From IMG/VR virus record IMGVR_UViG_2778261396_000002: DNA of 29,073 bases; one strand, given 5' to 3'. A program made the translations under genes and the position numbers. Source of the DNA: a virus. Its lineage: Duplodnaviria; Heunggongvirae; Uroviricota; Caudoviricetes. Shown in pieces: positions 2,183 through 27,662 of the stretch (position 1 is its first letter; the number at the start of each line of letters is the position of its first letter). Below the pieces are notes generated by a model. That model was given only the letters and a program-made list of their open reading frames with translations. It had not been told where the DNA came from and did no database searches.

Positions 2183-2893
2183 GTGAAATACAAATTACTA
2201 CCATGCTTACTCGCGATATTCCTCACAGGATGTGACCGCACAGAGGTAACACTTTCATTTACCCCTGAGATGGCCAGTTTCTCTAATGAATTCGATTTTG
2301 ATCCGCTGCGTGGTCCGGTAAAAGATTTCACTCAGACATTAATGGATGAGCAAGGTGAAGTGACGAAACGTGTTTCTGGGACTTTGTCGCAAGAAGGCTG
2401 TTTTGATTCACTCGAATTACTGGATCTGGAAAATAATACCGTGGTCGCTCTGGTACTGGACGCCAATTATTACCGTGATGCCGAGACGCTGGAGAAGAGA
2501 GTACGTTTACAGGGAAAATGCCAGCTAGCAGAATTACCTTCTGCCGGGGTGAGTTGGGAAACCGATGATAATGGCTTCGTGATTAAAGCCAGCAGCAAAC
2601 AAATGCAGATGGAATATCGCTATGATGATCAGGGTTATCCACTGGGTAAAACCACGAAAAGTAACGACAAAACATTATCTGTCAGCGCCACGCCATCAAC
2701 GGACCCGATCAAAAAATTAGATTACACAGCGGTTACTTTACTGAATAATCAACGAGTTGGTAATGTAAAACAGAGCTGTGAATATGACAGTCACGCCAAT
2801 CCGGTGGACTGTCAGCTGATCATTGTTGATGAAGGAGTAAAACCCGCCGTCGAACGGGTTTACACCATCAAAAATACAATCGATTATTATTAA
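2183..2893 (+). CDS. ynfC: Lipoprotein YnfC (UPF0257), 236 aa from GTG start
   Basis: ORF 2147..2893; canonical lipoprotein signal (V/M)KYKLLPCLLAIFLTGC begins at GTG 2183; upstream ATG 2147 is an alternative start. Confidence 0.75.
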   Translation: MKYKLLPCLLAIFLTGCDRTEVTLSFTPEMASFSNEFDFDPLRGPVKDFTQTLMDEQGEVTKRVSGTLSQEGCFDSLELLDLENNTVVALVLDANYYRDAETLEKRVRLQGKCQLAELPSAGVSWETDDNGFVIKASSKQMQMEYRYDDQGYPLGKTTKSNDKTLSVSATPSTDPIKKLDYTAVTLLNNQRVGNVKQSCEYDSHANPVDCQLIIVDEGVKPAVERVYTIKNTIDYY

Positions 2894-2895
2894 TG

Positions 2896-3456
2896 CTATT
2901 GTGCGGTCGGCTTCAGGAGAGTCTGACCCGGTGTTTTGTGCTCTGCCAGATACTGATGCTGGAATATACACATGCGAATGGCATTACGATATTGACCATT
3001 AATAAAAAACTCATGCATCAATTCACCTTCAACCGTAAAGCCAAGCTTGCGGTAAATGTGAATCGCTTTTTCATTCTCTTTATCGACGATCAGATACAAC
3101 TTATAGAGATTGAGAACGGTGAAGCCATAGTCCATTGCTAATTTGGCGGCACGGGTTGCCAGACCTTTCCCCTGATACTCCGGGGAGATAATTATCTGAA
3201 ATTCTGCGCGGCGATGTACATGGTTAATTTCCACCAGCTCCACCAGACCGGCTTTTTCGCCGTCACATTCCACCACAAAGCGCCGTTCGCTCTGATCGTG
3301 AATATGCTTATCATACAGATCAGAGAGTTCAACAAAGGCTTCGTAGGGTTCCTCAAACCAGTAACGCATCACACTGGCGTTATTGTCGAGTTGATGTACA
3401 TAGCGTAAATCTTCACGCTCCAGCGGGCGTAGCTTAACACTGTGGGCGCTTGGCAT
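2896..3456 (-). CDS. speG: Spermidine N1-acetyltransferase SpeG (186 aa)
   Basis: ORF translation [41 protein letters not shown]… GNAT fold, matches recalled SpeG. Confidence 0.95.
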
Positions 3457-3490
3457 AACGTGTCCTTACATTCCTTAAATCAATAACAGG

Positions 3491-3832
3491 TTAGGGGGTA
3501 ATAACGCGGCCAGTTCGACGGTCCAGGCAGCGCAAAGTATTTGGCTCCCAGTAGGCATTGATGTTGGCGCTTTGCTCACATTTATCTCGGTTATCAAAAG
3601 CGGCGTCGGCTTTATCCCACTCTTTTTCAGTGCGTTTATTCACTTTCTGGCGCAGATTGCGCGTGTCATTCCATTGCTCTTTTTCCATAGCGGCGTGCTG
3701 GCGGCTTTGTGCACTGTCGCCAGACTCAATCACCAGTTTGTTAGTTTCGGCATGAACAGTTGTGCTCAATGCCAGTGCGCAAGGCAGCAGAAAAGCGAGC
3801 AGGCCGATTCGTTTGCTGAGAGTGATTTTCAT
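3491..3832 (-). CDS. ynfB: UPF0482 secreted protein YnfB (113 aa)
   Basis: ORF translation with N-terminal signal peptide [28 protein letters not shown]; synteny upstream of speG. Confidence 0.85.
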
Positions 3833-11685: not shown

Positions 11686-11738
11686 GGGCGGCAGAGCAGT
11701 CACGGAGTAAAACTGATACCGCCAAACGTCACCAGAAA
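11686..11738 (-). ncRNA. dicF: DicF small RNA (53 nt; ftsZ-targeting)
   Basis: Reverse complement reads TTTCTGGTGACGTTTGGCGGTATCAGTTTTACTCCGTGACTGCTCTGCCGCCC followed by T-run, matching recalled DicF; lies between ydfC and dicB. Confidence 0.85.
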
Positions 11739-13497: not shown

Positions 13498-14002
13498 ACA
13501 GGCTCGTGAGGCTCTGGATGCCTGGATATGTCGACCAGGAATGACACAGGAGCAGGCGACGATATTAATCACTGAAGCATTCTGGGCTTTGAAAGAGCGC
13601 CCGAACATCGATGTTCAGCGTGTCACAGATGAAGGTGGCGCGGTTGATCAGCGAGCGCTTGGTGTTAATCGAGTGAAGATATTCGAACGCTGGAAGGCTA
13701 TCGATACCAGGGATAAGCGTGAAAAGTTCACGGCGCTAGTGCCTGCGATTATGGAGGCTATCCGGATTAGTGATTTCAGGTTGTATCGTGAAATTACTGA
13801 CGGAAAAAGCATCACGTGCATGATCGCCGGGTTAAACAAAGAATATGGCGATGTGGTGGAGTCCGGACTGCTTTTTGCTGATCCTGCCGTAGTGGATCGT
13901 GAAACTGACGAACTTATAGAAAAAGCAATTGCTTTCAAGCTTGCGTATCGACAGCAATACCAACAAAAAGCTGGATGGAATTATGAGCCTTCTTTTTGCT
14001 GA
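13481..14002 (+). CDS. YdaT-like prophage protein (cII-position gene), 173 aa
   Basis: ORF translation MKITPEQAREALDAWICRPGMTQEQA…; position directly after cro-like gene; family assignment from memory only. Confidence 0.45.
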   Translation: MKITPEQAREALDAWICRPGMTQEQATILITEAFWALKERPNIDVQRVTDEGGAVDQRALGVNRVKIFERWKAIDTRDKREKFTALVPAIMEAIRISDFRLYREITDGKSITCMIAGLNKEYGDVVESGLLFADPAVVDRETDELIEKAIAFKLAYRQQYQQKAGWNYEPSFC

Positions 14003-14948
14003 ACGCCCACTGGTTATAAACACGCAGCTGGCAATGAAAATTGGCTTAAACGAAGCCATTGTTTTGCAACAACTGCACTACTGGTTGAGAGATACCAACT
14101 CCGGCATGGAATGTGATGGTGTTCGCTGGATTTATAACACAACGGAACAATGGCTGGAACAGTTCCCATTCTGGTCAGAGTCAACGTTAAAGCGCGCGTT
14201 TGCAAGTCTGAAAACGCTGGGGCTTTTGCGTTGTGAAAAGCTCAATAAATCAAAGCGCGATATGACCAATTTCTACACGATCAACTATGGGAGCGAGCTT
14301 TTAGATGGTGGCAAATTGAGCGAATCCATCGGTTCAAAATGCGCCGCTCCATCAGGTCAAAATGACACGATGGAAGAGGTCAAAATGAAACGCTCCATTG
14401 GTTCAAAACGACCCAATGTCATCGGGTCAAAATGGCCTGATGATCTTACAGAGAATACAACAGAGATTACTACAGAGAATAAAAACACTTTTCGTCCGGA
14501 AGCTTCGCAACCGGACCCGCAGACGACTGAACAGGATTTTTTAACCCGGAACTCCGACGCGGTTGTGTTTAGTGCGAAAAAACGCCAGTGGGGTAGCAGG
14601 GAGGATTTGGCGTGTGCGCAGTGGATCTGGGGGCGGATCGTGGGTCTCTACGAACAGGCAGCCAGTGATGATGGCGAGATCATGCGACCAAAAGAGCCTA
14701 ACTGGACTGCCTGGGCCAATGACGTGCGCACAATGCGGATGCTGGATGGCAGAAGCCACAGACAAATTTGCGAAATGTTTGGTCGGGTTCAGCGAGATCC
14801 ATTCTGGGTAAAAAACATCATGAGCCCGTCAAAGCTCCGCGAAAAATGGGACGAACTGGTCATCCGCCTGGGACGTTCACCTGTACAGCGTTGTGTTAAT
14901 CATATTTCTGAACCGGATACAGAAATTCCGCCTGGTTTCAGAGGATAA
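13983..14948 (+). CDS. Phage replication initiation protein (lambda O-like, HTH N-domain), 321 aa
   Basis: ORF 13929..14948; ATG 13983 MSLLFAERPLVINTQLAMKIGLNEAIVLQQLHYWL…; repeated SIGSK peptide motifs encoded by DNA iterons. Confidence 0.7.
   Translation: MSLLFAERPLVINTQLAMKIGLNEAIVLQQLHYWLRDTNSGMECDGVRWIYNTTEQWLEQFPFWSESTLKRAFASLKTLGLLRCEKLNKSKRDMTNFYTINYGSELLDGGKLSESIGSKCAAPSGQNDTMEEVKMKRSIGSKRPNVIGSKWPDDLTENTTEITTENKNTFRPEASQPDPQTTEQDFLTRNSDAVVFSAKKRQWGSREDLACAQWIWGRIVGLYEQAASDDGEIMRPKEPNWTAWANDVRTMRMLDGRSHRQICEMFGRVQRDPFWVKNIMSPSKLREKWDELVIRLGRSPVQRCVNHISEPDTEIPPGFRG
14327..14436 (+). repeat. Five direct iteron-like repeats (core GGT(T)CAAAA(T/C)G, ~23-bp spacing) inside the replication gene – candidate prophage origin
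   Basis: Cores at about 14331, 14355, 14378, 14400, 14424 read directly from sequence. Confidence 0.55.
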
Positions 14949-14988
14949 GTGTTGATTTCAGGTCATGAGGTAATTTTAAGGGGGACTT

Positions 14989-15411
14989 GTGGCAAAAGTT
15001 TTTACACAAGAAGAGCGGGAAAAAATTAAATGGCAGGTGGTGGAACTCGTGCGCCAGAGCGGCCGTGAGACGTTACGGCAACTGGAAGCTAAAACAGGTG
15101 CGACTAGATATCTGATGAGCGTTCTTGCCAGAGAGCTGGTAGCCAGTGGCGATGTATACAACTCCGGCTACGGGTTATTCCCCTCTGAACAGGCGCGTAA
15201 GGACTGGCAAAACGCCCGCAAAAAACTCTCGAGGGCAAAGGTGAAGAAACCTGCTGTGGTTGATCCGGACCTTATCTGGTCATCACCTGACGGAGAAATA
15301 CGTCGCTACGACAGTCGCCTAAACATAATCTGTCGCGAGTGCCGGAAGAGCGAAGTTATGCAGCGCATACTGGCTTTCTATCAGGGTAATTTTCAGGACG
15401 TGGCGCAGTGA
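14989..15411 (+). CDS. Hypothetical prophage protein (140 aa, GTG start)
   Basis: ORF with AGGGGGA SD 4-5 nt upstream of GTG; stop overlaps next gene start (GTGA). Confidence 0.45.
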   Translation: MAKVFTQEEREKIKWQVVELVRQSGRETLRQLEAKTGATRYLMSVLARELVASGDVYNSGYGLFPSEQARKDWQNARKKLSRAKVKKPAVVDPDLIWSSPDGEIRRYDSRLNIICRECRKSEVMQRILAFYQGNFQDVAQ

Positions 15412-15854
15412 GTGCACCGGCAACCATTCTTGATATGTGCTGTGGCAGCCGCATGTTCTGGTTCGATAAGTCTGACGAACGGGCGATATTCAGCGATATC
15501 AGAAAAGAAGGATACACATTACGCAATGGGAGACGCTTGATTATCAGCCCTGACATTATCGCAGATTTTCGTGCATTATCATTTGCAGACGCATCTTTTT
15601 CGATGGTTGTATTAGACCCTCCGCATCTTGAGAGTGTTGGTGATAACGCCTGGATGGGAAAGAAATATGGACGGCTGAATAAAGATGCCTGGCGTGATGA
15701 TTCGCGACAGAGATTTAAAGAAGCCTTTCGGGTGTTGAGGCCGCACGGCGTTCTGATTTTTTAATGGAATGAAACGCAAATACCGGTAAGCCAGATTCTG
15801 GCACTGACAGACAGAAAACCTGTTATCTGTCAACGAACAGGGAAAAAACGATAA
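15408..15854 (+). pseudogene. SAM-dependent (gamma-class-like amino-) methyltransferase remnant with in-frame TAA at 15762-15764
   Basis: Motif I-like LDMCCGSRMF and motif IV-like VVLDPPH; same frame continues after the TAA for 29 more codons; total still short for a DNA MTase. Confidence 0.4.
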
Positions 15855-16026
15855 AACCCACTGGATTATTTTTATGAAAGAGGCATCCAGTGAGTAGATT
15901 CGTAAGGCTACAGATACGTATATCTGAATAATTAAATTCAGTTCTGTAAATAAAATTTAATCCTTAACCGGATGGATTTCTGCACCCTCAGAACATCAGG
16001 AGGCCGCCCGAAAGGGCGGTAGTGAA

Positions 16027-16137
16027 ATGCGAAAGTTCAAAATTATTATTGAAACGGGAATAGCTGGTGGAGATTTTGAGGATGTATTCGAAGTGGACGA
16101 TGACGCAACACCTGAGGAAATTCATGACGGAGCATAA
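16027..16137 (+). CDS. Small acidic ORF (36 aa) preceded by AGGAGG and a GAAA-tetraloop hairpin
   Basis: ATG 16027 … MRKFKIIIETGIAGGDFEDVFEVDDDATPEEIHDGA*; below ORF-track size cutoff; manual translation. Confidence 0.3.
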   Translation: MRKFKIIIETGIAGGDFEDVFEVDDDATPEEIHDGA

Positions 16138-16186
16138 GAAATTTTCTTTAACTACTGCAATTACTCATACCACGAAATAAAAGACG

Positions 16187-16378
16187 ATGAGGAAGAACAA
16201 AGTGGCTGATTTTTGTTCAGCTAAATATAACATCAGTTTTGAAGAGCGGGATGAACTATTAATGGACTATGGTGAGTTACGCGGTGGAAGTGCTGCTGAT
16301 GTCGAATCCTAGCGTGATGACTATGAAGCGGGAAAAACTCCGGTCGAAGCATATTGTGATGAGTGGGGCGATGAATGA
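16187..16378 (+). pseudogene. Small ORF (63 codons) with in-frame amber TAG at 16310-16312
   Basis: MRKNKVADFCSAKYNISFEERDELLMDYGELRGGSAADVES*RDDYEAGKTPVEAYCDEWGDE*; stop overlaps next ORF start (ATGA). Confidence 0.35.
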
Positions 16379-16662
16379 GCGAGATTAATTATCAGGAAGG
16401 GCATGAAACGGCGGGGCAAGCAAAACCAGTGGCATGGCGATATCGCTACGTGAAAAAAGGCGTTACGGACTTTCAGGGGAAGTAGTGGTCTGGTGACTGG
16501 AAATATGTACCGAAAAAAGAGGATTGTAACGACAGGCCGAACTATCAAATTCAGGCCTTATTCACTGCCTCACCAGTCCCAGTTACATCAGAAGAACTGG
16601 TTAAAGCTGTGCACTTTTATGAACAACTAAAACGCGAAAATCCACCAACATCCGGCAACTAG
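16375..16662 (+). pseudogene. Small ORF (95 codons) with in-frame amber TAG at 16483-16485
   Basis: MSEINYQEGHETAGQAKPVAWRYRYVKKGVTDFQGK*WSGDWKYVPKKEDCNDRPNYQIQALFTASPVPVTSEELVKAVHFYEQLKRENPPTSGN*. Confidence 0.35.
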
Positions 16663-16916
16663 ATTAATGGATTAACTATGTCGGTTAAACGACCAGCCAA
16701 CTGAAAAAGCGGAAACCTGATTACAGGTTGCCAGATAAGGCAATGAGCTACCTGGCGCGGAACGGACTGATAAGTATGGGGAATGTTTTACGATGAACCT
16801 TTAGACTAAAGAGTTTGTAACGCTATGTAAGTGATTTTTTCTGGTTTAGATATTTATATGTCCGGCCAAATTGAGGTGTGTTTAAATGTAATTGCACATT
16901 GATTGTAGGAGGAATA

Positions 16917-17096
16917 ATGAAAAACGCATTGCAGTTTTTGTTTGTTGCGTTCTGGTTGTTCGCATCATGTATGCCCATCATCTTCACAGCAAGGTATATG
17001 GAAAAAGTTGATGTTTTGATATTAATATTTGGATATATAAATGCCCTTTTTTTAGGGGTGTTCATGGCGGTCATGTGCATTGAATACTGGCGGTAA
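16917..17096 (+). CDS. Small two-TM membrane protein (59 aa)
   Basis: AGGAGG SD at 16907-16912 then ATG 16917: MKNALQFLFVAFWLFASCMPIIFTARYMEKVDVLILIFGYINALFLGVFMAVMCIEYWR. Confidence 0.45.
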   Translation: MKNALQFLFVAFWLFASCMPIIFTARYMEKVDVLILIFGYINALFLGVFMAVMCIEYWR

Positions 17097-17430
17097 ATAC
17101 AGCGAACTCCATTGGTTTAGTTGGATATTTACTGTGCTGGACAAAAACGGTTTGCGGGGAAATCTTAGTTAAGTAGAATGACTGCGGGTGCTTGAGGCTA
17201 TCTGCCTCGGGCATGGACACCAACGGCAGATAGAGAAAAGCCCCAGTTAACATTACGCGTCCTGCAAGACGCTTAACATTAATCTGAGGCCAATTTCATG
17301 CTAGACACATGTAGGTTAGCCTCTTACGTGCCGAAAGGCACGGAGAAGCAGGCTATTGTTAACACCAAGCTGTAATGTCCCCTTTGAACCATTCTAAAAT
17401 GTCCCCAGACAATTCTCTGGGGGATTTTTC

Positions 17431-18744
17431 ATGATCAAAGAGACTGTTACGATGAGTCATAAGGAACTCCACCGACTTCAGATTATTCAGGAACAAGCTG
17501 CGGCACGCATTGGCATTTCTATTCGGCAGGTTAAACGTCTGGTGCAACGGTATAGAAATGAAGGGCCTTCTGGTCTGGTTTCCCACCGACGTGGAAAGCG
17601 TCCTAATAATTCCTTTTCTACTGAATTCAGAGCAACAGTAATTTCACTCCTCAAAGGCCGTTACGCTGATTTTGGACCTACGTTTGCGTGCGAAAAATTG
17701 CGCGAGATACACGGTTTATCTTTATCCGTTGAAACTCTCAGAAAGTGGATGATAGAAGAGGGGTTATGGCGTGAACGCCGTCGTAAAATTGCCCGTATAT
17801 ATCAACGCCGCATGCGACGACCATCTTACGGTGAACTGATCCAGATTGATGGCTCACCTCATGACTGGTTTGAAAATCGAGGCCCCAGATGTACACTGAT
17901 CGTTTTCATTGATGATGCCACCAGTGCGTTGATGGCGTTGCGTTTTGTGCCTGCTGAAACAACCCGGGCTTACATGGAAACCCTCCGGGGTTACCTTAAT
18001 GATCATGGCGTACCGCTCGCTCTCTACTCTGATAGACACAGTATATTCAGGGTAAATAACCCAGAGCGGGAAGGTGAGCTGACCCAGTTCACTCGTGCGA
18101 TAAAGACACTGGGCATCGAGCCAATCCATGCCAACAGCCCGCAGGCAAAAGGGCGGGTAGAGCGCGCCAATCAGACACTACAGGACAGGCTGGTCAAAGA
18201 AATGCGGCTTCAGAATATCAGTGATATTGAAACAGCAAATGCATGGTTGCCGACCTTTATTGAAGCCTATAACAACCGGTTCGCTACGTCGCCTCGTACT
18301 ACTGATAATGCTCATCTTGATGTGCACCATTCTGAAGAGGAACTGGGTTATATCTTCAGCCTACAGGCGAAGCGCGTTCTGTCTAAAAATCTCACTTTCC
18401 AGTACAAAAGCAGTGCGTTTCAGGTACGCAGTGAGGGCCGGGGATATCGACTTAGGCATTCGGTTGTTACTGTATGCGAGAACTTTGACGGTGAAATTAA
18501 CGTTCTGTATGACGGGAAAGCGCTGGGCTGGGAAAAGTATGTTGATGGCCCGGAGCCTATACCACTGGATGATGAAAAGAGTGTCCATGAACGAGTGGAT
18601 AATGCCCGTATTGATTTACGCTCAAAATACTATGTTAAACCTAAAGCTGACCATCCCTGGCTTACGCGCCGAACGCAAAGTCATCAGCAAGTTAAGCCCC
18701 CGAAGTTACCTAAAAAGAAGCCTGATCCCGATAAAAAAGATTGA
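17431..18744 (+). CDS. DDE transposase, integrase-core (rve) type with N-terminal HTH; ISNCY(IS1202/ISPlu15-group)- or IS481-like (437 aa)
   Basis: ORF translation: HTH (GISIRQVKRLVQRY), DDE-type core (…IQIDGSPHDW…ALYSDRHSIF…ANSPQAKGRVERANQTLQ…); family from memory. Confidence 0.8.
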   Translation: MIKETVTMSHKELHRLQIIQEQAAARIGISIRQVKRLVQRYRNEGPSGLVSHRRGKRPNNSFSTEFRATVISLLKGRYADFGPTFACEKLREIHGLSLSVETLRKWMIEEGLWRERRRKIARIYQRRMRRPSYGELIQIDGSPHDWFENRGPRCTLIVFIDDATSALMALRFVPAETTRAYMETLRGYLNDHGVPLALYSDRHSIFRVNNPEREGELTQFTRAIKTLGIEPIHANSPQAKGRVERANQTLQDRLVKEMRLQNISDIETANAWLPTFIEAYNNRFATSPRTTDNAHLDVHHSEEELGYIFSLQAKRVLSKNLTFQYKSSAFQVRSEGRGYRLRHSVVTVCENFDGEINVLYDGKALGWEKYVDGPEPIPLDDEKSVHERVDNARIDLRSKYYVKPKADHPWLTRRTQSHQQVKPPKLPKKKPDPDKKD

Positions 18745-19140
18745 AACCAAGATCGATTCGGTTGAGTGCATATCCATTCATAGGGTAGATTCTTAAGTCG
18801 CGTTTCTGGTGTTCATTTTCGGGTGGTTTGTTACTTGTTTTACCGGGGATATGCCAGAAACGCGCTGAGTCAGTCTGGGCGGTGCGCGTAATGAGGCGTT
18901 ATGGTAAATAGCCTATGCTAATGTCCGCTAAGAGCAAGAAGCGGAAGTTGGCAGTTTTGTGGACTGTCCCCACAAAAGTGACTACAGAAATAGTTGCAAT
19001 TCATAATTGATCATGGGTTGTCAGTTAAACTCGTGGCGATTTAAATAGACTAATTGGGAGTGCGTCCATTACTTATATCTTGTAATGTTAACTATCAGAA
19101 ATGATACAAAGATAATATGTCTTTAAAGAAAAGGCTGATG

Positions 19141-19166
19141 GCGAAAAGTGGCCCGATGAGGGCCAC
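19141..19166 (-). terminator. Rho-independent terminator downstream of flxA
   Basis: GTGGCCC-GATGA-GGGCCAC hairpin followed by T-run on minus strand. Confidence 0.5.
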
Positions 19167-19180
19167 AATACGGCTGTCAC

Positions 19181-19513
19181 TTAGACGTAAATATCAATGG
19201 TGCCAGCGGTATTTGTATCGTCTTTTTTCTCTTCTTTTTTATCAGGCTGAACTGTCGCGTCTTCATTCTTTTTCTCTGCCTGCTGCCTTAACAACTGCTC
19301 CAGTTGAGCCCAGAGGCTTTCAATTTGCTTCTGTACCAATGCAGCCATTTCTTTTTTCTGCTGTGTCGTCATCCCCTCTTCCGATGAGATTTTCCCAAGC
19401 TTTTCAGTCAGCACCTGAATTTGTCTTGTGATTTTGGCTATTTCTGATGTTCCTTCCGGGGCGGAGTTGTTTGAAATAACGGTTGAGGTATTTCCCTGAA
19501 TTGTGACAGACAT
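19181..19513 (-). CDS. flxA: FliA-regulated protein FlxA (110 aa)
   Basis: ORF translation MSVTIQGNTSTVISNNSAPEGTSEIAKITRQIQVLTEKLGKI… coiled-coil, Lys/Glu-rich C-terminus. Confidence 0.9.
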   Translation of the reverse strand: MSVTIQGNTSTVISNNSAPEGTSEIAKITRQIQVLTEKLGKISSEEGMTTQQKKEMAALVQKQIESLWAQLEQLLRQQAEKKNEDATVQPDKKEEKKDDTNTAGTIDIYV

Positions 19514-19536
19514 AGATTTCTCCTTTTAAAAAAGCA

Positions 19537-19564
19537 CTATCGGCATGCACAAAAAAATCTTTAA
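19537..19564 (-). promoter_or_regulatory. Sigma-28 (FliA) promoter of flxA: TAAA-N15-GCCGATAG
   Basis: Minus-strand sequence TAAAGATTTTTTTGTGCATGCCGATAG immediately upstream of flxA start. Confidence 0.6.
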
Positions 19565-19715
19565 TCGTATTTCTTGTGTCATTAATTGTTTGATGTTCAG
19601 ATTGTTTTCCTCGCGGGCTGGCGCGCCTCAGAAAGTAAAGCTTGTTGACAGGGGTAAACGTTCGGCAATAATTTTCTGCCGCATGCGGGTGTTGCATAAA
19701 ACGTGTTACGTTCCT

Positions 19716-20021
19716 TTATCGACAGGTCAGGTCACCGCTCACCAGCCGACGAGAAAGCAACACTGACATGCTAAAGCAAAAAATAGATGAATAAGTTGAG
19801 TTGTGCATATGTAGCCTGACCGTCACAAAGTATATGGTGTCTGTACCAGTAAGATGATGGCCGGACTCTTTAAAAACGAGCTGACCTGCACAATACAGGA
19901 TGGACTTAGCAATGGCTGCTCCTGGCACAAAGCGGACAGTGATCACCGTTCTTACGACTACTTTCTGACTTCCTTCGTGACTTGCCCTAAGCATGTTGTA
20001 GTGCGATACTTGTAATGACAT
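19716..20021 (-). CDS. ydfV: Hypothetical prophage protein YdfV-like (101 aa)
   Basis: ORF of the recalled YdfV length, divergent from relB; start lies inside relBE operator region. Confidence 0.45.
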   Translation of the reverse strand: MSLQVSHYNMLRASHEGSQKVVVRTVITVRFVPGAAIAKSILYCAGQLVFKESGHHLTGTDTIYFVTVRLHMHNSTYSSIFCFSMSVLLSRRLVSGDLTCR

Positions 20022-20033
20022 TTGTAATTACAA
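20010..20033. promoter_or_regulatory. relBE operator/promoter inverted repeats (TTGTAATGACATTTGTAATTACAA)
   Basis: Inverted TTGTAAT/ATTACAA elements directly upstream of relB start codon. Confidence 0.5.
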
Positions 20034-20045
20034 GAGGTGTAAGAC

Positions 20046-20285
20046 ATGGGTAGCATTAACCTGCGTATTGACGATGAACTTAAAGCGCGTTCTTACGCCG
20101 CGCTTGAAAAAATGGGTGTAACTCCTTCTGAAGCGCTTCGTCTCATGCTCGAGTATATCGCTGACAATGAACGCTTGCCGTTCAAACAGACACTCCTGAG
20201 TGATGAAGATGCTGAACTTGTGGAGATAGTGAAAGAACGGCTTCGTAATCCTAAGCCAGTACGTGTGACGCTGGATGAACTCTGA
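20046..20285 (+). CDS. relB: Antitoxin RelB (79 aa)
   Basis: ORF translation MGSINLRIDDELKARSYAALEKMGVTPSEALRLMLEYIADNERLPF…. Confidence 0.95.
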   Translation: MGSINLRIDDELKARSYAALEKMGVTPSEALRLMLEYIADNERLPFKQTLLSDEDAELVEIVKERLRNPKPVRVTLDEL

Positions 20286-20572
20286 TGGCGTATTTTCTGG
20301 ATTTTGACGAGCGGGCACTAAAGGAATGGCGAAAGCTGGGCTCGACGGTACGTGAACAGTTGAAAAAGAAGCTGGTTGAAGTACTTGAGTCACCCCGGAT
20401 TGAAGCAAACAAGCTCCGTGGTATGCCTGATTGTTACAAGATTAAGCTCCGGTCTTCAGGCTATCGCCTTGTATACCAGGTTATAGACGAGAAAGTTGTC
20501 GTTTTCGTGATTTCTGTTGGGAAAAGAGAACGCTCGGAAGTATATAGCGAGGCGGTCAAACGCATTCTCTGA
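20285..20572 (+). CDS. relE: mRNA interferase toxin RelE (95 aa)
   Basis: ORF translation MAYFLDFDERALKEWRKLGSTVREQLKKKLVEVLESPRIEANKLRGMPDCYKIKLRSSGYRLVYQVIDEKVVVFVISVGKRERSEVY…; 1-nt overlap with relB. Confidence 0.95.
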   Translation: MAYFLDFDERALKEWRKLGSTVREQLKKKLVEVLESPRIEANKLRGMPDCYKIKLRSSGYRLVYQVIDEKVVVFVISVGKRERSEVYSEAVKRIL

Positions 20573-20643
20573 ACCAAAGCATGACATCTCTGTTTCGCAC
20601 CGAAGGTGACACTTCTGCTTTGCGTTGACAGGAGAAGCAGGCT

Positions 20644-20799
20644 ATGAAGCAGCAAAAGGCGATGTTAATCGCCCTGATCGTCATCTGTTTAACCGTCATA
20701 GTGACGGCACTGGTAACGAGGAAAGACCTCTGCGAGGTACGAATCCGAACCGGCCAGACGGAGGTCGCTGTCTTCACAGCTTACGAACCTGAGGAGTAA
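20644..20799 (+). CDS. hokD: Hok-family type I toxin HokD/RelF (51 aa)
   Basis: Manual translation MKQQKAMLIALIVICLTVIVTALVTRKDLCEVRIRTGQTEVAVFTAYEPEE*. Confidence 0.9.
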   Translation: MKQQKAMLIALIVICLTVIVTALVTRKDLCEVRIRTGQTEVAVFTAYEPEE

Positions 20800-24063: not shown

Positions 24064-24363
24064 AAAAATTCCTTAATACTGATAACTTGGCGCACTATAC
24101 ACACGTTCCTGAAGAAAGCTATAGTTTTTTGATGGGGTTGAAGATGGCTGGATGTCTAAAATAAACATTGCTTCATATGTTCAACTATGCGTTAATGATT
24201 GCGTCGGTTTGAAGAACAGACGATATACGAAGTAGTTTACTAAAGCAGTTCTCATTTCAGGTGTTATTCACTTATTCCTTCTTTGAGTCTCTCCAATTAA
24301 GTACGAAGTCGTTTCTGTTATGCAAACCATTTATGCCGAAAGGCTCAAGTTAAGGAATGTAGA

Positions 24364-24579
24364 ATGTCAAATAAAATGACTGGTTTAGTAAAATGGTTTA
24401 ACGCTGATAAAGGTTTCGGCTTTATTTCTCCTGTTGATGGTAGTAAAGATGTGTTTGTGCATTTTTCTGCGATTCAGAATGATAATTATCGAACCTTATT
24501 TGAAGGTCAAAAGGTTACCTTCTCTATAGAGAGTGGTCCTAAAGGTCCTGCAGCAGCAAATGTCATCATTACTGATTAA
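24364..24579 (+). CDS. cspB: Cold-shock protein CspB (71 aa)
   Basis: ORF translation [71 protein letters not shown]. Confidence 0.93.
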
Positions 24580-24861
24580 AATTCATCGCTCGTCTGTATA
24601 CGATAACGAAGAAGGCTGATGCCTGAGTAGAGATACGGACAGAGTAGTGAATATTGGATCTCTTTAATAAAAAGTAAGGAGGTCCAATACATGAAACAAT
24701 GGCTAGCATATTTGGCAAAATCTTAATCAGGAAAAGTATGCTAACCATTGTGGTGAAGTGCAGGTTTGCTGCATGAATAGTTTTACAGCAGAAGCTAACT
24801 GCTGGCATGGCAAAACAAAGTGCGTAAGTGGATGACTCCCACAAAAAGCACCACAATCTCA

Positions 24862-26888: not shown

Positions 26889-27250
26889 GGTAATATTAAA
26901 TCGGAACATTTACATCGCGGAATGTAAAATTTAAATAAAAAGGACTCTTCCATGAGCCAAAATTCCTGAAATCTTAAGGGTAAGATAAAAGGTCTTAATC
27001 AGAATGACACGTTTTATTAATAAATAAAGCTATTCTTTCATTGCTGTGTTTTTCTTTACAAAAGTAATCCTTGCTATGGGTGGTTAATCATGCGTTAATG
27101 GTGTTCTGGTTTGTTACAAATTTATCTGAAGCAGTCATTGTTATAATTTTATTATTTGTACCTCTTGAGATTTCCTTGTTGGTTTTTCTCTCTGATATTT
27201 TTTTTCGGACCATTCTGCCCAAGGGCTAATTTCTTCAAAAGGTAATAATT

Positions 27251-27463
27251 ATGTCTAACAAAATGACTGGTTTAGTGAAATGGTTTAACCCTGAAAAAGG
27301 TTTTGGTTTCATCACGCCGAAAGATGGCAGCAAAGATGTGTTTGTCCATTTCTCAGCAATTCAGAGCAACGATTTCAAAACATTAACTGAGAATCAGGAA
27401 GTTGAATTTGGTATTGAGAACGGACCTAAAGGTCCTGCCGCTGTTCATGTAGTGGCGCTTTGA
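27251..27463 (+). CDS. cspI: Cold-shock protein CspI (70 aa)
   Basis: ORF translation [70 protein letters not shown]. Confidence 0.93.
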
Positions 27464-27662
27464 GGTAGACAATATTACAAACCATATTCACTTTAGATGC
27501 CCGTGTTGTCATGGTTCCCAGTATAGAACATCATCTTTTGATGTTTCTGACATGAATCCTTTCGGGGCAAAATGTATCTTTTGTAAATCAATGATGATTA
27601 CATTTGATAATATTTCACAATACTTAAATGCCAGCCGTCTGTCGTTGGATTTAAAAAAGTGA
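27453..27662 (+). pseudogene. Zinc-ribbon ORF (paralog of 24943-25113) lacking canonical start; open frame begins inside cspI 3' end
   Basis: Frame open from TAG at 27450-27452: …HFRCPCCHGSQYRTSSFDVSDMNPFGAKCIFCKSMMITFDNISQYLNASRLSLDLKK*; first in-frame ATG (27552) lies after first Cys pair. Confidence 0.35.

What the first reader, a model, noticed from the sequence alone, without database searches (positions are those of the whole stretch)
17376..18975. ISNCY/IS481-like transposase with undefined element boundaries
The 437-aa transposase has an HTH plus rve-type DDE core, but I could not find convincing terminal inverted repeats. Instead, similar direct motifs (AATGTCCCC… at 17376 and 17402; …TGTCCCCACAAAA at 18963) flank the gene. 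The element apparently replaced the helicase-loader/nin portion of the prophage, since flxA follows directly.
Basis: partly seen in the sequence, partly recalled or inferred. Interest (0 to 1): 0.4.

Follow-up and report, generated by a model that had tools for sequence, protein, structure and literature searches.

The report
Transposon carrying relBE, inserted in hok
The transposase gene is the left part of a 3.3-kb transposon that also carries flxA, ydfV and the relBE toxin-antitoxin genes; it sits exactly at the start of a hok toxin gene, as its relatives do in many plasmids and prophages, and this explains the origin of the E. coli relB-relE-hokD operon.

Summary
The 437-aa HTH+DDE transposase is real and belongs to the IS1202 (ISNCY) family, ISEsa1-like.

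- **Ends.** The left end is at 17357 (TGTTAACACC...). The right end is at 20630 (...GCGTTGACA). The two 26-bp ends match 19/26 as inverted repeats, and this is the best such match in the window.
- **Target duplication.** A 15-bp direct repeat, GGAGAAGCAGGCTAT, flanks the 3274-bp unit.
- **Content.** The unit carries tnp, flxA, ydfV, relB and relE.
- **Target.** It splits a hok/sok locus: the leader lies at 17186-17356 and the hokD coding sequence at 20644-20799.
- **Empty site.** More than 1100 E. coli records hold the uninterrupted site with one copy of the 15-mer, in the same prophage type. Nothing was replaced.
- **Relatives.** Elements of 3.3-12.8 kb share the architecture IRL-tnp-cargo-relBE-IRR; one carries nickel and chromate resistance genes. 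They sit at the same position in at least 28 different hok leaders, same orientation, with site-specific 14-17-bp duplications.
- **This copy.** It lacks 9 aa of the HTH and is probably non-autonomous.
- **E. coli K-12.** It keeps only the right 2.07 kb (ydfW to relBE).

Hok targeting and the true boundaries appear undescribed in the searched literature.

The parts
17186..17356 (+). Orphaned hok/sok leader (mok/sok region of the hokD locus), cut off from its toxin gene by the insertion
   Evidence: Rfam RF01794 'sok' scores 104 bits at 17186-17357. The same leader is contiguous with hokD in empty-site genomes.
17342..17356 (.). Left copy of the 15-bp target-site duplication GGAGAAGCAGGCTAT (hok Shine-Dalgarno plus AT of the ATG)
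   Evidence: Identical to 20631-20645. Present once in the empty site L021.
17357..17382 (+). Left terminal inverted repeat (IRL), TGTTAACACCAAGCTGTAATGTCCCC
   Evidence: The point where 43 different left flanks converge. Matches the reverse complement of 20605-20630 at 19/26.
17400..17423 (+). Second subterminal TGTCCCC motif (17400-17406) and a terminator-like hairpin (17402-17423) with a T-run, just before the tnp ATG
   Evidence: A role in blocking read-through from the hok promoter is inferred.
17431..18744 (+). IS1202-family (ISEsa1-like) DDE transposase, 437 aa, with an alternative start at 17452. It lacks 9 aa (QESINRHIT) of the N-terminal HTH because of a 27-bp deletion at about 17487/17488. 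D140, D201, E244 and Q251 are present.
   Evidence: RefSeq names intact copies 'IS1202-like element ISEsa1 family transposase'.
18745..18949 (+). Conserved non-coding tail of the left module. It contains an 11-bp perfect inverted repeat (18799-18809 / 18854-18864) and ends in palindrome P1 (core 18923-18946, GTCCGC-N12-GCGGAA).
   Evidence: Homology among cargo variants stops at 18945-18949.
18950..19917 (.). Variable cargo segment of this variant: flxA (19181-19513, minus strand) and most of ydfV (19716-20021, minus strand)
   Evidence: Other variants have other genes in this position. FlxA matches Pfam PF14282.
19914..19937 (.). Palindrome P2 (GGCTGC-N12-GCGGAC; consensus GTCCGC-TTCTGGCACAAA-GCGGAC), marking the start of the conserved right module
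20046..20572 (+). relB (20046-20285) and relE (20285-20572), a type II toxin-antitoxin pair present next to the right end in every complete copy examined
   Evidence: RelB matches Pfam PF04221. A 100%-identical stretch in another E. coli genome is annotated with protein accessions that are also the ones annotated in K-12. relBE lies next to the IRR in all complete copies.
20605..20630 (-). Right terminal inverted repeat (IRR); read on the minus strand it is TGTCAACGCAAAGCAGAAGTGTCACC
   Evidence: Best match to IRL in the whole window at 19/26; 0 of 200,000 random pairs reach that score. Right junctions in 91 loci are followed by a hok SD and coding sequence.
20631..20645 (.). Right copy of the 15-bp target-site duplication
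20644..20799 (+). hokD (relF) toxin coding sequence, separated from its leader by 3274 bp and now downstream of relBE

Best explanation
Window 17357-20630 is one 3274-bp transposon of the IS1202 family, a 'transporter IS' related to ISEsa1.

**Structure (shown).**
- It has 26-bp imperfect terminal inverted repeats with TGT...ACA termini.
- It encodes one DDE transposase.
- It has a variable cargo slot, here holding flxA and ydfV.
- It has a constant relBE toxin-antitoxin module next to the right end.

**Insertion (shown).**
- It inserted by transposition into the hok/sok locus of a Qin-like prophage.
- It duplicated the 15 bp that hold the hok ribosome-binding site and the first two bases of the start codon.

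**Targeting (geometry shown, mechanism inferred).**
- Family members insert at this same position in many different hok loci. The upstream edge of the duplication lies next to the conserved hairpin of the hok leader, and the downstream edge 14-17 bp further on.
- The left end always faces the leader.
- I infer that the transposase, alone or with a host factor, recognises a feature of the hok leader DNA and makes staggered cuts 15-16 bp apart.

**Consequences.**
- The toxin gene is cut off from its mok/sok control region (shown).
- In K-12, hokD is co-transcribed with relBE as the relBEF operon (from the literature). In the window it lies directly downstream of relBE.
- The element brings its own addiction module to the plasmid or prophage whose hok system it disrupts (inferred).

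**This copy.** It carries a 9-aa deletion in the HTH and is probably immobile unless helped in trans (inferred).
For: **Ends and duplication**
- IRL and IRR match 19/26. This is the best such match in the window, the next best is 17/26, and 0 of 200,000 random pairs reach 19.
- Identical 15-mers lie at 17342-17356 and 20631-20645.

**Empty site**
- The joined flanks match as a single piece at 99.2% identity, and 1119 E. coli records hold a match covering at least 80% of them.
- Locus L021 is the same prophage type and has one copy of the 15-mer. It has no tnp, flxA, ydfV or relBE.
- The window is collinear with L021 on both sides.

**Movement as a unit**
- The same 3.3-kb unit, 98-99% identical, sits in an IncF hok locus (L003), an IncI pnd locus (L004) and a non-hok site (L139). 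Each hok site has its own matching duplication.
- Of 68 loci with both ends in view, 54 have a perfect 15/15 duplication. Several others have 16 bp.

**Target**
- 28 of 43 distinct left flanks (145 of 163 loci) are hok leaders.
- The Rfam sok model ends at or within a few bases of IRL in 16 of 20 representative loci.
- Right junctions are followed by at least five different Hok proteins.
- In L026 the DNA downstream of the cut is not hok, yet the insertion is at the usual position after the leader hairpin with a perfect 16-bp duplication.

**Architecture**
- The conserved left module (17357-18949) and right module (19918-20630) bracket different cargo in at least 6 variants.
- One variant is a 12,843-bp element with ncr and chr metal-resistance genes.

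**Family**
- NF033594 scores 456 bits.
- The DDE motif, the DD pair and the Q at E+7 fit the published IS1202 signature (bioRxiv 10.1101/2022.12.17.520857).
- A 15-17-bp duplication is a known subgroup trait (same preprint; PMC10132070).
Against: - No transposition experiment exists. Activity is inferred from population polymorphism.
- 11 of 43 left-flank types are not hok. One complete copy (L139) has only a 6-bp flanking repeat.
- hok leaders are conserved for their own RNA function, so conservation at the target does not by itself identify what is recognised.
- The ISfinder entry for ISEsa1 is reported as 1609 bp with 15/22 inverted repeats and no target duplication (PMC10132070). A shorter autonomous form may therefore exist that I could not inspect.
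- No Cronobacter (the ISEsa1 source genus) locus matched the exact left-end pattern.
- The window copy has a damaged HTH.
Confidence: 0.85

Rival explanations
1. A conventional ~1.6-kb ISEsa1 insertion sequence (about 17357-18940) sits next to unrelated prophage genes. flxA, ydfV and relBE are prophage DNA, not part of the element.
For: - ISEsa1 is listed as 1609 bp with a 439-aa transposase (PMC10132070).
- The conserved left module from IRL to the end of the GAGC motif is 1606 bp in intact copies.
- The ORF read from its second Met is 439 aa.
- Homology among variants breaks at 18935-18949.
Against: - No inverted repeat and no duplication exists at that right boundary.
- PMC10132070 itself reports no detectable target duplication for ISEsa1.
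- Empty-site genomes lack the whole 3274 bp, not just 1.6 kb.
- The duplication flanks the 3274-bp unit.
- The whole unit recurs at other hok loci with new duplications.
Confidence: 0.07
2. The segment spread among hok loci by homologous recombination or gene conversion between related hok sequences, or hok association reflects selection for insertions that disarm a toxin. On this view there is no targeted transposition.
For: - hok loci share 70-90% identity, so recombination between them is conceivable.
- Hybrid flanks exist (L107, L142, L168).
- Disrupting a toxin gene is plausibly tolerated or favoured.
Against: - Junctions fall within a 3-4-nt window in 28 divergent leaders.
- Flanks differ right up to the junction.
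- Each site has its own duplicated 14-17-mer. This is what staggered cutting produces; neither recombination nor a shared att core would give it.
- Orientation is nearly constant: 28 direct hok flanks against 1 inverted.
- Selection alone would allow insertions anywhere in the 150-bp coding sequence.
Confidence: 0.05
3. The element is a fusion of two older units: a ~1618-bp IS (TGTTAAC...GCGGACA) and a ~0.72-kb relBE-bearing non-autonomous unit (TGTCCGC...GTTGACA). Cargo is trapped between them. Palindromes P1 and P2 are relics of the inner ends or sites for cargo exchange.
For: - P1 and P2 sit exactly at the two homology breaks.
- Their arms are GTCCGC/GCGGAC with 12-nt spacers.
- They are inverted relative to each other, with spacers matching 8/12.
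- Each contains TGT.../...ACA and the AATGTCC motif also found in IRL.
- There is exactly one P1 and one P2 per element with an intact junction.
Against: - The inner 'ends' match IRL poorly (11/26 by direct reading).
- The alignment of the region after P1 to the IRL reverse complement is not above shuffles.
- No copy of either half alone with its own duplication was seen.
- This explanation concerns origin and is compatible with the main one.
Confidence: 0.25

Closest known systems
IS1202 family (formerly the ISNCY IS1202 group), including 'transporter IS' such as ISKpn21 and the ISTde1 subgroup with 15-17-bp duplications
   Same: - HTH + DDE transposase with the family signature (DD between D1 and D2, Q at E+7).
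- About 26-bp imperfect inverted repeats starting TGT.
- An unusually long target duplication (15-16 bp).
- Passenger genes are allowed.
   Different: - The cargo slot is large and variable (0.7 to about 10.5 kb), with a constant relBE module at the right end.
- The target is the hok leader/SD junction, which has not been reported for any member in the papers read.
ISAjo2/ISAba32-type IS1202 members that insert 5 bp from the XerC arm of dif/pdif sites
   Same: - Oriented, position-specific insertion with IRL next to a recognised DNA feature carried mostly by plasmids.
- The same site can be hit more than once (tandem arrangement in L093).
   Different: - No dif-like sequence lies next to IRL here (direct reading).
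- The duplication is 15-16 bp, not 5 bp.
- The recognised feature is a type I toxin-antitoxin leader.
ISEsa1 (ISfinder; 1609 bp, IR 15/22, no target duplication, Tnp 439 aa)
   Same: - RefSeq labels intact copies of this transposase 'ISEsa1 family'.
- The transposase length and the left-module length agree with the entry.
   Different: - Here the functional ends are 3.3 kb apart and a 15-bp duplication is present.
- The ISfinder sequence itself could not be compared.
IS150/IS186 insertions beside hokA, hokC and hokE of E. coli K-12, and the 'rearranged' hokD locus (Pedersen & Gerdes 1999, recalled from memory); relBE 'integrated into hokD' (PMC6379469, citing Ramisetty & Santhosh 2016)
   Same: - Chromosomal hok loci are inactivated by mobile DNA.
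- It was already known that relBE had been inserted at hokD and came from plasmids.
   Different: - The vehicle, its ends, its duplication, its recurrent hok specificity and its other cargo were not described in the literature I could search.

Membership tests
IS1202 family | Transposase with N-terminal HTH and DDE core, two conserved D between D1 and D2, and Q seven residues after E | tested here: met
   NF033594 scores 456 bits against a cut-off of 250. Pfam finds HTH and rve_3. D140, D161-D162, D201, E244 and Q251 were read from alignment A3. The signature is as described in bioRxiv 10.1101/2022.12.17.520857.
IS1202 family | Imperfect terminal inverted repeats of about 23-29 bp beginning 5'-TGT | tested here: met
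17357-17382 against 20605-20630 matches 19/26 with TGT...ACA termini, and is the best match in the window.
IS1202 family | Target-site duplication of a subgroup-typical length (3-6, 15-17 or 27-28 bp) | tested here: met
   15 bp in the window. 54 of 68 loci have a perfect 15-mer and others have 16 bp. The empty site has one copy.
ISAba32/ISAjo2 subgroup (dif-targeting) | IRL lies 5-6 bp from the XerC arm of a dif-like site, with a 5-6-bp duplication | tested here: not met
   The 30 nt left of IRL is the hok leader hairpin and SD. There is no match to the XerC/XerD arms listed in PMC10132070 Table 8 (direct reading). The duplication is 15 bp.
ISEsa1 (ISfinder entry) | Nucleotide identity to the ISfinder reference, and its stated ends (1609 bp, IR 15/22) | not testable with these tools
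   ISfinder is not available. Indirect evidence: the RefSeq product name, a 439-aa ORF from the second Met, and a left module of 1606-1620 bp. No IR was found at that right boundary.
ISEsa1 (ISfinder entry) | Intact transposase | tested here: not met
   The window copy lacks QESINRHIT in the HTH relative to 446-aa copies.
[quoted passage not shown] | Leader with mok/sok elements directly upstream of a Hok/Gef coding sequence | tested here: not met
   Both parts are present: Rfam sok at 17186-17357 and hokD at 20644-20799. They are separated by 3274 bp, and are contiguous only in empty-site genomes.
relBE type II toxin-antitoxin | Adjacent RelB antitoxin and RelE toxin genes | tested here: met
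   RelB matches PF04221 at E = 1e-32. An identical stretch in another E. coli genome is annotated WP_000534858.1 (RelB) and WP_000323025.1 (RelE), the same accessions as in K-12.

The most novel reading that the evidence does not exclude
There is a family of IS1202-type transposons that home to hok toxin genes. They recognise the hok leader DNA and cut at a fixed distance from its hairpin. This replaces the plasmid's or prophage's type I (hok/sok) addiction control with the transposon's own relBE. New cargo, including nickel and chromate resistance genes, is taken up between two dedicated palindromic sites (P1 and P2). On this reading ISEsa1 has been mis-delimited, and the textbook relBEF operon of E. 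coli K-12 is the stump of such a transposon.
Probability: 0.45. Interest if true: 0.75.

Novelty: new variant of a known kind. Interest (0 to 1): 0.6.

Why it matters
- **An open point in IS classification.** ISEsa1 and its subgroup were set apart because no target duplication could be found (PMC10132070). With the correct right end there is a 15-16-bp duplication, as in the ISTde1 subgroup.
- **A second target specificity in the IS1202 family.** dif/pdif targeting was known. A toxin-antitoxin leader carried by plasmids and prophages is new, and it offers a tractable system for studying how a DDE transposase picks a site at a fixed distance.
- **The origin of the relBEF operon.** It gives a concrete mechanism for why hokD in E. 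coli K-12 lacks mok/sok and is co-transcribed with relBE. It also identifies ydfW/ydfX-flxA-ydfV-relBE as a decayed transposon.
- **Clinical plasmids.** The same vehicle carries metal-resistance cargo on Klebsiella and Enterobacter plasmids. Annotation pipelines currently miss this because they call only a 1.6-kb IS or a pseudogene.

Tried and rejected
- **Inverted repeats inside 17376-18975.** None found.
- **A vestigial right IR just after the left module (18950-18990).** The local alignment to the IRL reverse complement scored 13, against a shuffle mean of 12.9. Rejected.
- **Right end derived from a hok leader.** I tested similarity between the hok leader and the IRR-proximal 150 nt. The score was below the shuffle mean. 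Rejected.
- **A dif/XerCD-like site next to IRL, as in ISAjo2-type relatives.** None by direct comparison with the arms in PMC10132070 Table 8.
- **A junction promoter on a circular intermediate.** TTGACA at the IRR tip and TGTAAT in IRL would lie 29-30 nt apart with a 15-bp spacer. Not a sigma-70 spacing, so rejected.
- **tnp driven by the hok promoter.** A terminator-like hairpin with a T-run sits between IRL and the ATG. Not favoured.
- **The 27-bp difference from ISEsa1-type copies lying in the C-terminus.** The RefSeq 'missing C-terminus' note suggested this. The alignment shows it is in the N-terminal HTH.
- **TGTCCCC motif enrichment.** Three copies against 2.25 expected. Not significant as a count.
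- **My early reading of 'one-ended' events with a fixed right flank.** This was superseded once the true right end was found.
Full report
**1. What is at the coordinates**

The ORF at 17431-18744 (+) encodes 437 aa. Pfam finds N-terminal HTH domains and a weak rve_3 core. NCBIfam gives 456 bits against NF033594 'ISNCY family transposase' (cut-off 250), with only sub-threshold similarity to IS481, IS21 and IS3.

Near-identical DNA occurs in 1166 of 5426 complete E. coli genomes. In RefSeq it is labelled either 'IS1202-like element ISEsa1 family transposase' (1341-bp form) or 'ISNCY family transposase' pseudogene plus 'ydfW' (1314-bp form, as in the window).

TGTCCCC occurs three times in the window, against 2.25 expected.

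**2. The left end**

Rfam places a hok/sok leader (RF01794, 104 bits) at 17186-17357, directly against the element.

I aligned the window with plasmid copies. I then extracted 169 loci that carry the left-end sequence from genome, metagenome and viral collections.

All contexts converge at window 17357, TGTTAACACCAAGCTGTAATGTCCCC. Upstream of that point there are 43 different flank types.

**3. The right end**

Sequence identity among copies drops at 18935-18949, but nothing there resembles an inverted repeat or a duplication.

The clue came from plasmids that share far more of the window. Their homology stops at 20648, two bases into hokD. Reading those junctions showed three things:
- Every copy ends in ...GGTGACACTTCTGCTTTGCGTTGACA (window 20605-20630).
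- The 15 nt after that end repeat the 15 nt before IRL.
- The repeat differs from site to site: GGAGAAGCAGGCTAT in the window, GGAGAAGAAGGCCAT in IncF hok, and TGGAGGGGCTATGAT in IncI pnd.

In the window the two 26-mers match 19/26 as inverted repeats with TGT...ACA termini. This is the best match to the IRL reverse complement anywhere in the 29 kb, and the next best is 17. None of 200,000 random pairs reached 19.

Both ends also carry a TGTC motif at positions 20-26 and about 44-50.

**4. The empty site**

I joined the two flanks with a single copy of the 15-mer. The joined sequence matches as one uninterrupted piece at 99.2% identity, and 1119 E. coli records hold a match covering at least 80% of it.

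One such genome (L021) has the same prophage backbone: Cro/CI, YdaT, DUF977, DUF7167, then hokD, rem, ydfU, Q. Its hok leader and hokD are contiguous, it has one GGAGAAGCAGGCTAT, and it has no tnp, flxA, ydfV or relBE.

The window is collinear with L021 on both sides, with a 16-nt overlap at the junction. The insertion is therefore clean, and no prophage segment was replaced.

**5. The element is a family with a fixed architecture**

Complete copies are 3274, 3301, 4237, 4487, 4600, 4655, 6093, 7694 and 12,843 bp long.

All share two modules:
- A left module, window 17357 to about 18949: IRL, tnp and about 200 nt of non-coding DNA.
- A right module, window 19918-20630: relB, relE and IRR, 96-99% identical between copies.

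Different cargo lies between them:

| Variant | Cargo |
|---|---|
| Window | flxA and ydfV |
| Other variants | cytochrome b561-like protein plus a cation-efflux protein |
| Other variants | YdcZ-type exporters plus a LysR regulator |
| Other variants | a hydrolase plus a LysR regulator |
| Other variants | an AAA-type kinase |
| CP032294 | about 10.5 kb with ncrABCY nickel and chrAB chromate resistance genes |

relBE lies next to the IRR in every complete copy examined.

The window-type 3.3-kb unit occurs at 98-99% identity in four places:
- the Qin-like prophage (the window);
- an IncF plasmid hok locus (L003);
- an IncI plasmid pnd locus (L004);
- one non-hok site (L139).

This shows recent movement of the whole unit.

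**6. Target specificity**

- By a profile built from Rfam-validated leaders, 28 of 43 left-flank types (145 of 163 loci) are hok leaders.
- Three more flank types carry the hok SD 15-mer preceded by the end of another element. One flank type is an inverted hok.
- In 16 of 20 representative loci the Rfam sok model ends at or within a few bases of IRL.
- Right junctions are followed by at least five different Hok proteins: HokD, R1-Hok-like, PndA-like and two others.
- Measured from the first G of the SD, the junction lies 14 nt (3 types), 15 nt (14), 16 nt (10) or 17 nt (1) downstream. Where both ends are known, this distance equals the duplication length. The upstream cut is therefore fixed next to the conserved leader hairpin (GCCGNAAGGCA), and the stagger varies slightly.
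- Orientation is constant, with IRL always facing the leader.
- In L026 the DNA downstream of the cut is foreign and encodes no Hok. The element still sits at the usual position after the leader hairpin with a perfect 16-bp duplication. This points to a determinant in the leader rather than in the duplicated sequence or the coding sequence.

The site-specific, non-identical duplications argue for staggered-cut transposition. They argue against homologous recombination and against an integrase-type shared core.

**7. State of this copy, and E. coli K-12**

Relative to 446-aa copies, the window transposase lacks QESINRHIT in the first part of the HTH. This is a 27-bp deletion at about 17487/17488. 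The catalytic D140, D201 and E244, the DD pair and Q251 are intact. I infer that this copy cannot bind its ends well and is non-autonomous. About a third of the both-ended loci carry this allele.

K-12 has lost window 13761-18559. That deletion removed the hok leader, IRL and most of tnp. What remains is the last 185 bp of tnp (annotated ydfX'/ydfW), flxA, ydfV, relBE, IRR, the duplication and hokD.

relBE and hokD (relF) are known to be co-transcribed in K-12 (PMC3598666).

**8. Comparison with what is known**

The IS1202 family has been defined with three subgroups by duplication length: 3-6, 15-17 and 27-28 bp. Members include passenger-carrying 'tIS', and the short-duplication subgroup targets dif/pdif sites (PMC10132070; bioRxiv 10.1101/2022.12.17.520857).

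ISEsa1 is listed there as 1609 bp, IR 15/22, Tnp 439 aa, 'no TSD detected', and was placed in a separate subgroup for that reason.

The left module here is 1606-1620 bp in intact copies, and the ORF from its second Met is 439 aa. I therefore infer that the listed ISEsa1 corresponds to the left module only. I could not inspect the ISfinder sequence, and no Cronobacter locus matched my exact left-end pattern.

PMC6379469, citing Ramisetty & Santhosh 2016, already states that relBE integrated into the ancestral hokD ORF and came from plasmids. Neither that paper nor any other paper returned by my searches names a transposon, its ends, or hok targeting. The library does not cover subscription journals fully, so novelty is probable rather than certain.

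**9. Unexplained features**

- **Palindromes at the cargo boundaries.** The two homology breaks that bound the cargo coincide with two 24-bp palindromes, inverted relative to each other, one of each per element:
  - P1 is GTCCGC-TAAGAGCGAGAA-GCGGAC.
  - P2 is GTCCGC-TTCTGGCACAAA-GCGGAC.
  - They may be cargo-exchange sites, extra transposase sites, or relics of inner ends.
- **L139.** One complete copy lies at a non-hok site with only a 6-bp flanking repeat.
- **L093.** An IRR-like end, 15 bp and IRL lie in series. This could be two elements in tandem or a circle-like junction.

**10. Verdict**

The observation of a transposase without nearby inverted repeats is correct. The proposed boundaries and the 'replacement' idea are wrong.

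The feature is a 3274-bp IS1202-family transposon that carries relBE and is inserted, with a 15-bp duplication, at the start of hokD. It is one of a family that inserts at this position in hok loci of plasmids and prophages.

The structural claims are well supported by sequence comparison. Target recognition through the hok leader is inferred. Transposition activity and the role of P1/P2 need experiments.

Noticed in passing
window 18923-18946 and 19914-19937; L007, L008, L022, L026, L075, L095, L098, L154: Two 24-bp palindromes (GTCCGC-N12-GCGGAC), inverted relative to each other, sit exactly at the two boundaries of the variable cargo in every element variant. Both are slightly degenerate in the window copy. 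Their function is unknown.
   Followed up: partly
L093 11689-11755: An IRR-like end, a 15-bp hok SD sequence and IRL lie in series. This is either two elements in tandem at one hok site or a circle-junction-like arrangement. The upstream element lacks relBE and has a different small antitoxin-like gene with a palindromic operator next to its end.
   Followed up: partly
L139 1345-4645: A complete 3301-bp element lies at a non-hok site and is flanked by only a 6-bp repeat (CGCCTT) instead of 15-16 bp.
   Followed up: no
L053 5528-6780; L073: Another IS (393-aa HTH+DDE ORF, opposite orientation) ends in ...GAACTTACACA directly against the hok SD 15-mer. The hok SD region seems to be hit by more than one kind of IS.
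   Followed up: partly
L007 about 2272-3800 (also L026): An IS110-family element (412-aa DEDD transposase, PF01548/PF02371) is inserted in the spacer of palindrome P1. This explains one of the apparent 'right flank' types.
   Followed up: partly
L022 (CP032294.1 81257-94099): A 12,843-bp family member on an IncFII/IncR Enterobacter plasmid carries ncrABCY (nickel) and chrAB (chromate) genes between tnp and relBE. It is inserted in the plasmid hok with the duplication GGAGAAGAAGGCCAT. The same cargo junction is seen on Klebsiella plasmids (L005, L006).
   Followed up: partly
window 13761-18559, compared with L170 (E. coli K-12): K-12 has a 4.8-kb deletion that removed prophage genes, the hok leader, IRL and most of tnp. 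K-12 ydfW is the last 49 codons of this transposase.
   Followed up: yes
window 17402-17423: A terminator-like hairpin (8-bp stem) with a T-run lies immediately upstream of the transposase start codon, overlapping the second TGTCCCC motif.
   Followed up: no
window 18799-18864: An 11-bp perfect inverted repeat (CGCGTTTCTGG / CCAGAAACGCG) with a 44-nt spacer lies in the conserved non-coding tail after tnp.
   Followed up: no
window 19645-19672 (+): The best promoter-like site in the element (TTGACA-16-AATAAT, 11/12) lies between flxA and ydfV and points towards relBE.
   Followed up: no
window 17341: The base just left of the duplication is C in the window lineage (77 loci) but A in empty-site genomes and in most other hok leaders. 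It is unclear whether this is a lineage polymorphism or a trace of the insertion.
   Followed up: no
window 11686-11737 (-), 24203-24595 (+), 27105-27490 (+): Rfam finds DicF RNA and two cspA-type thermoregulator 5'UTRs, consistent with a Qin-like cryptic prophage backbone.
   Followed up: no
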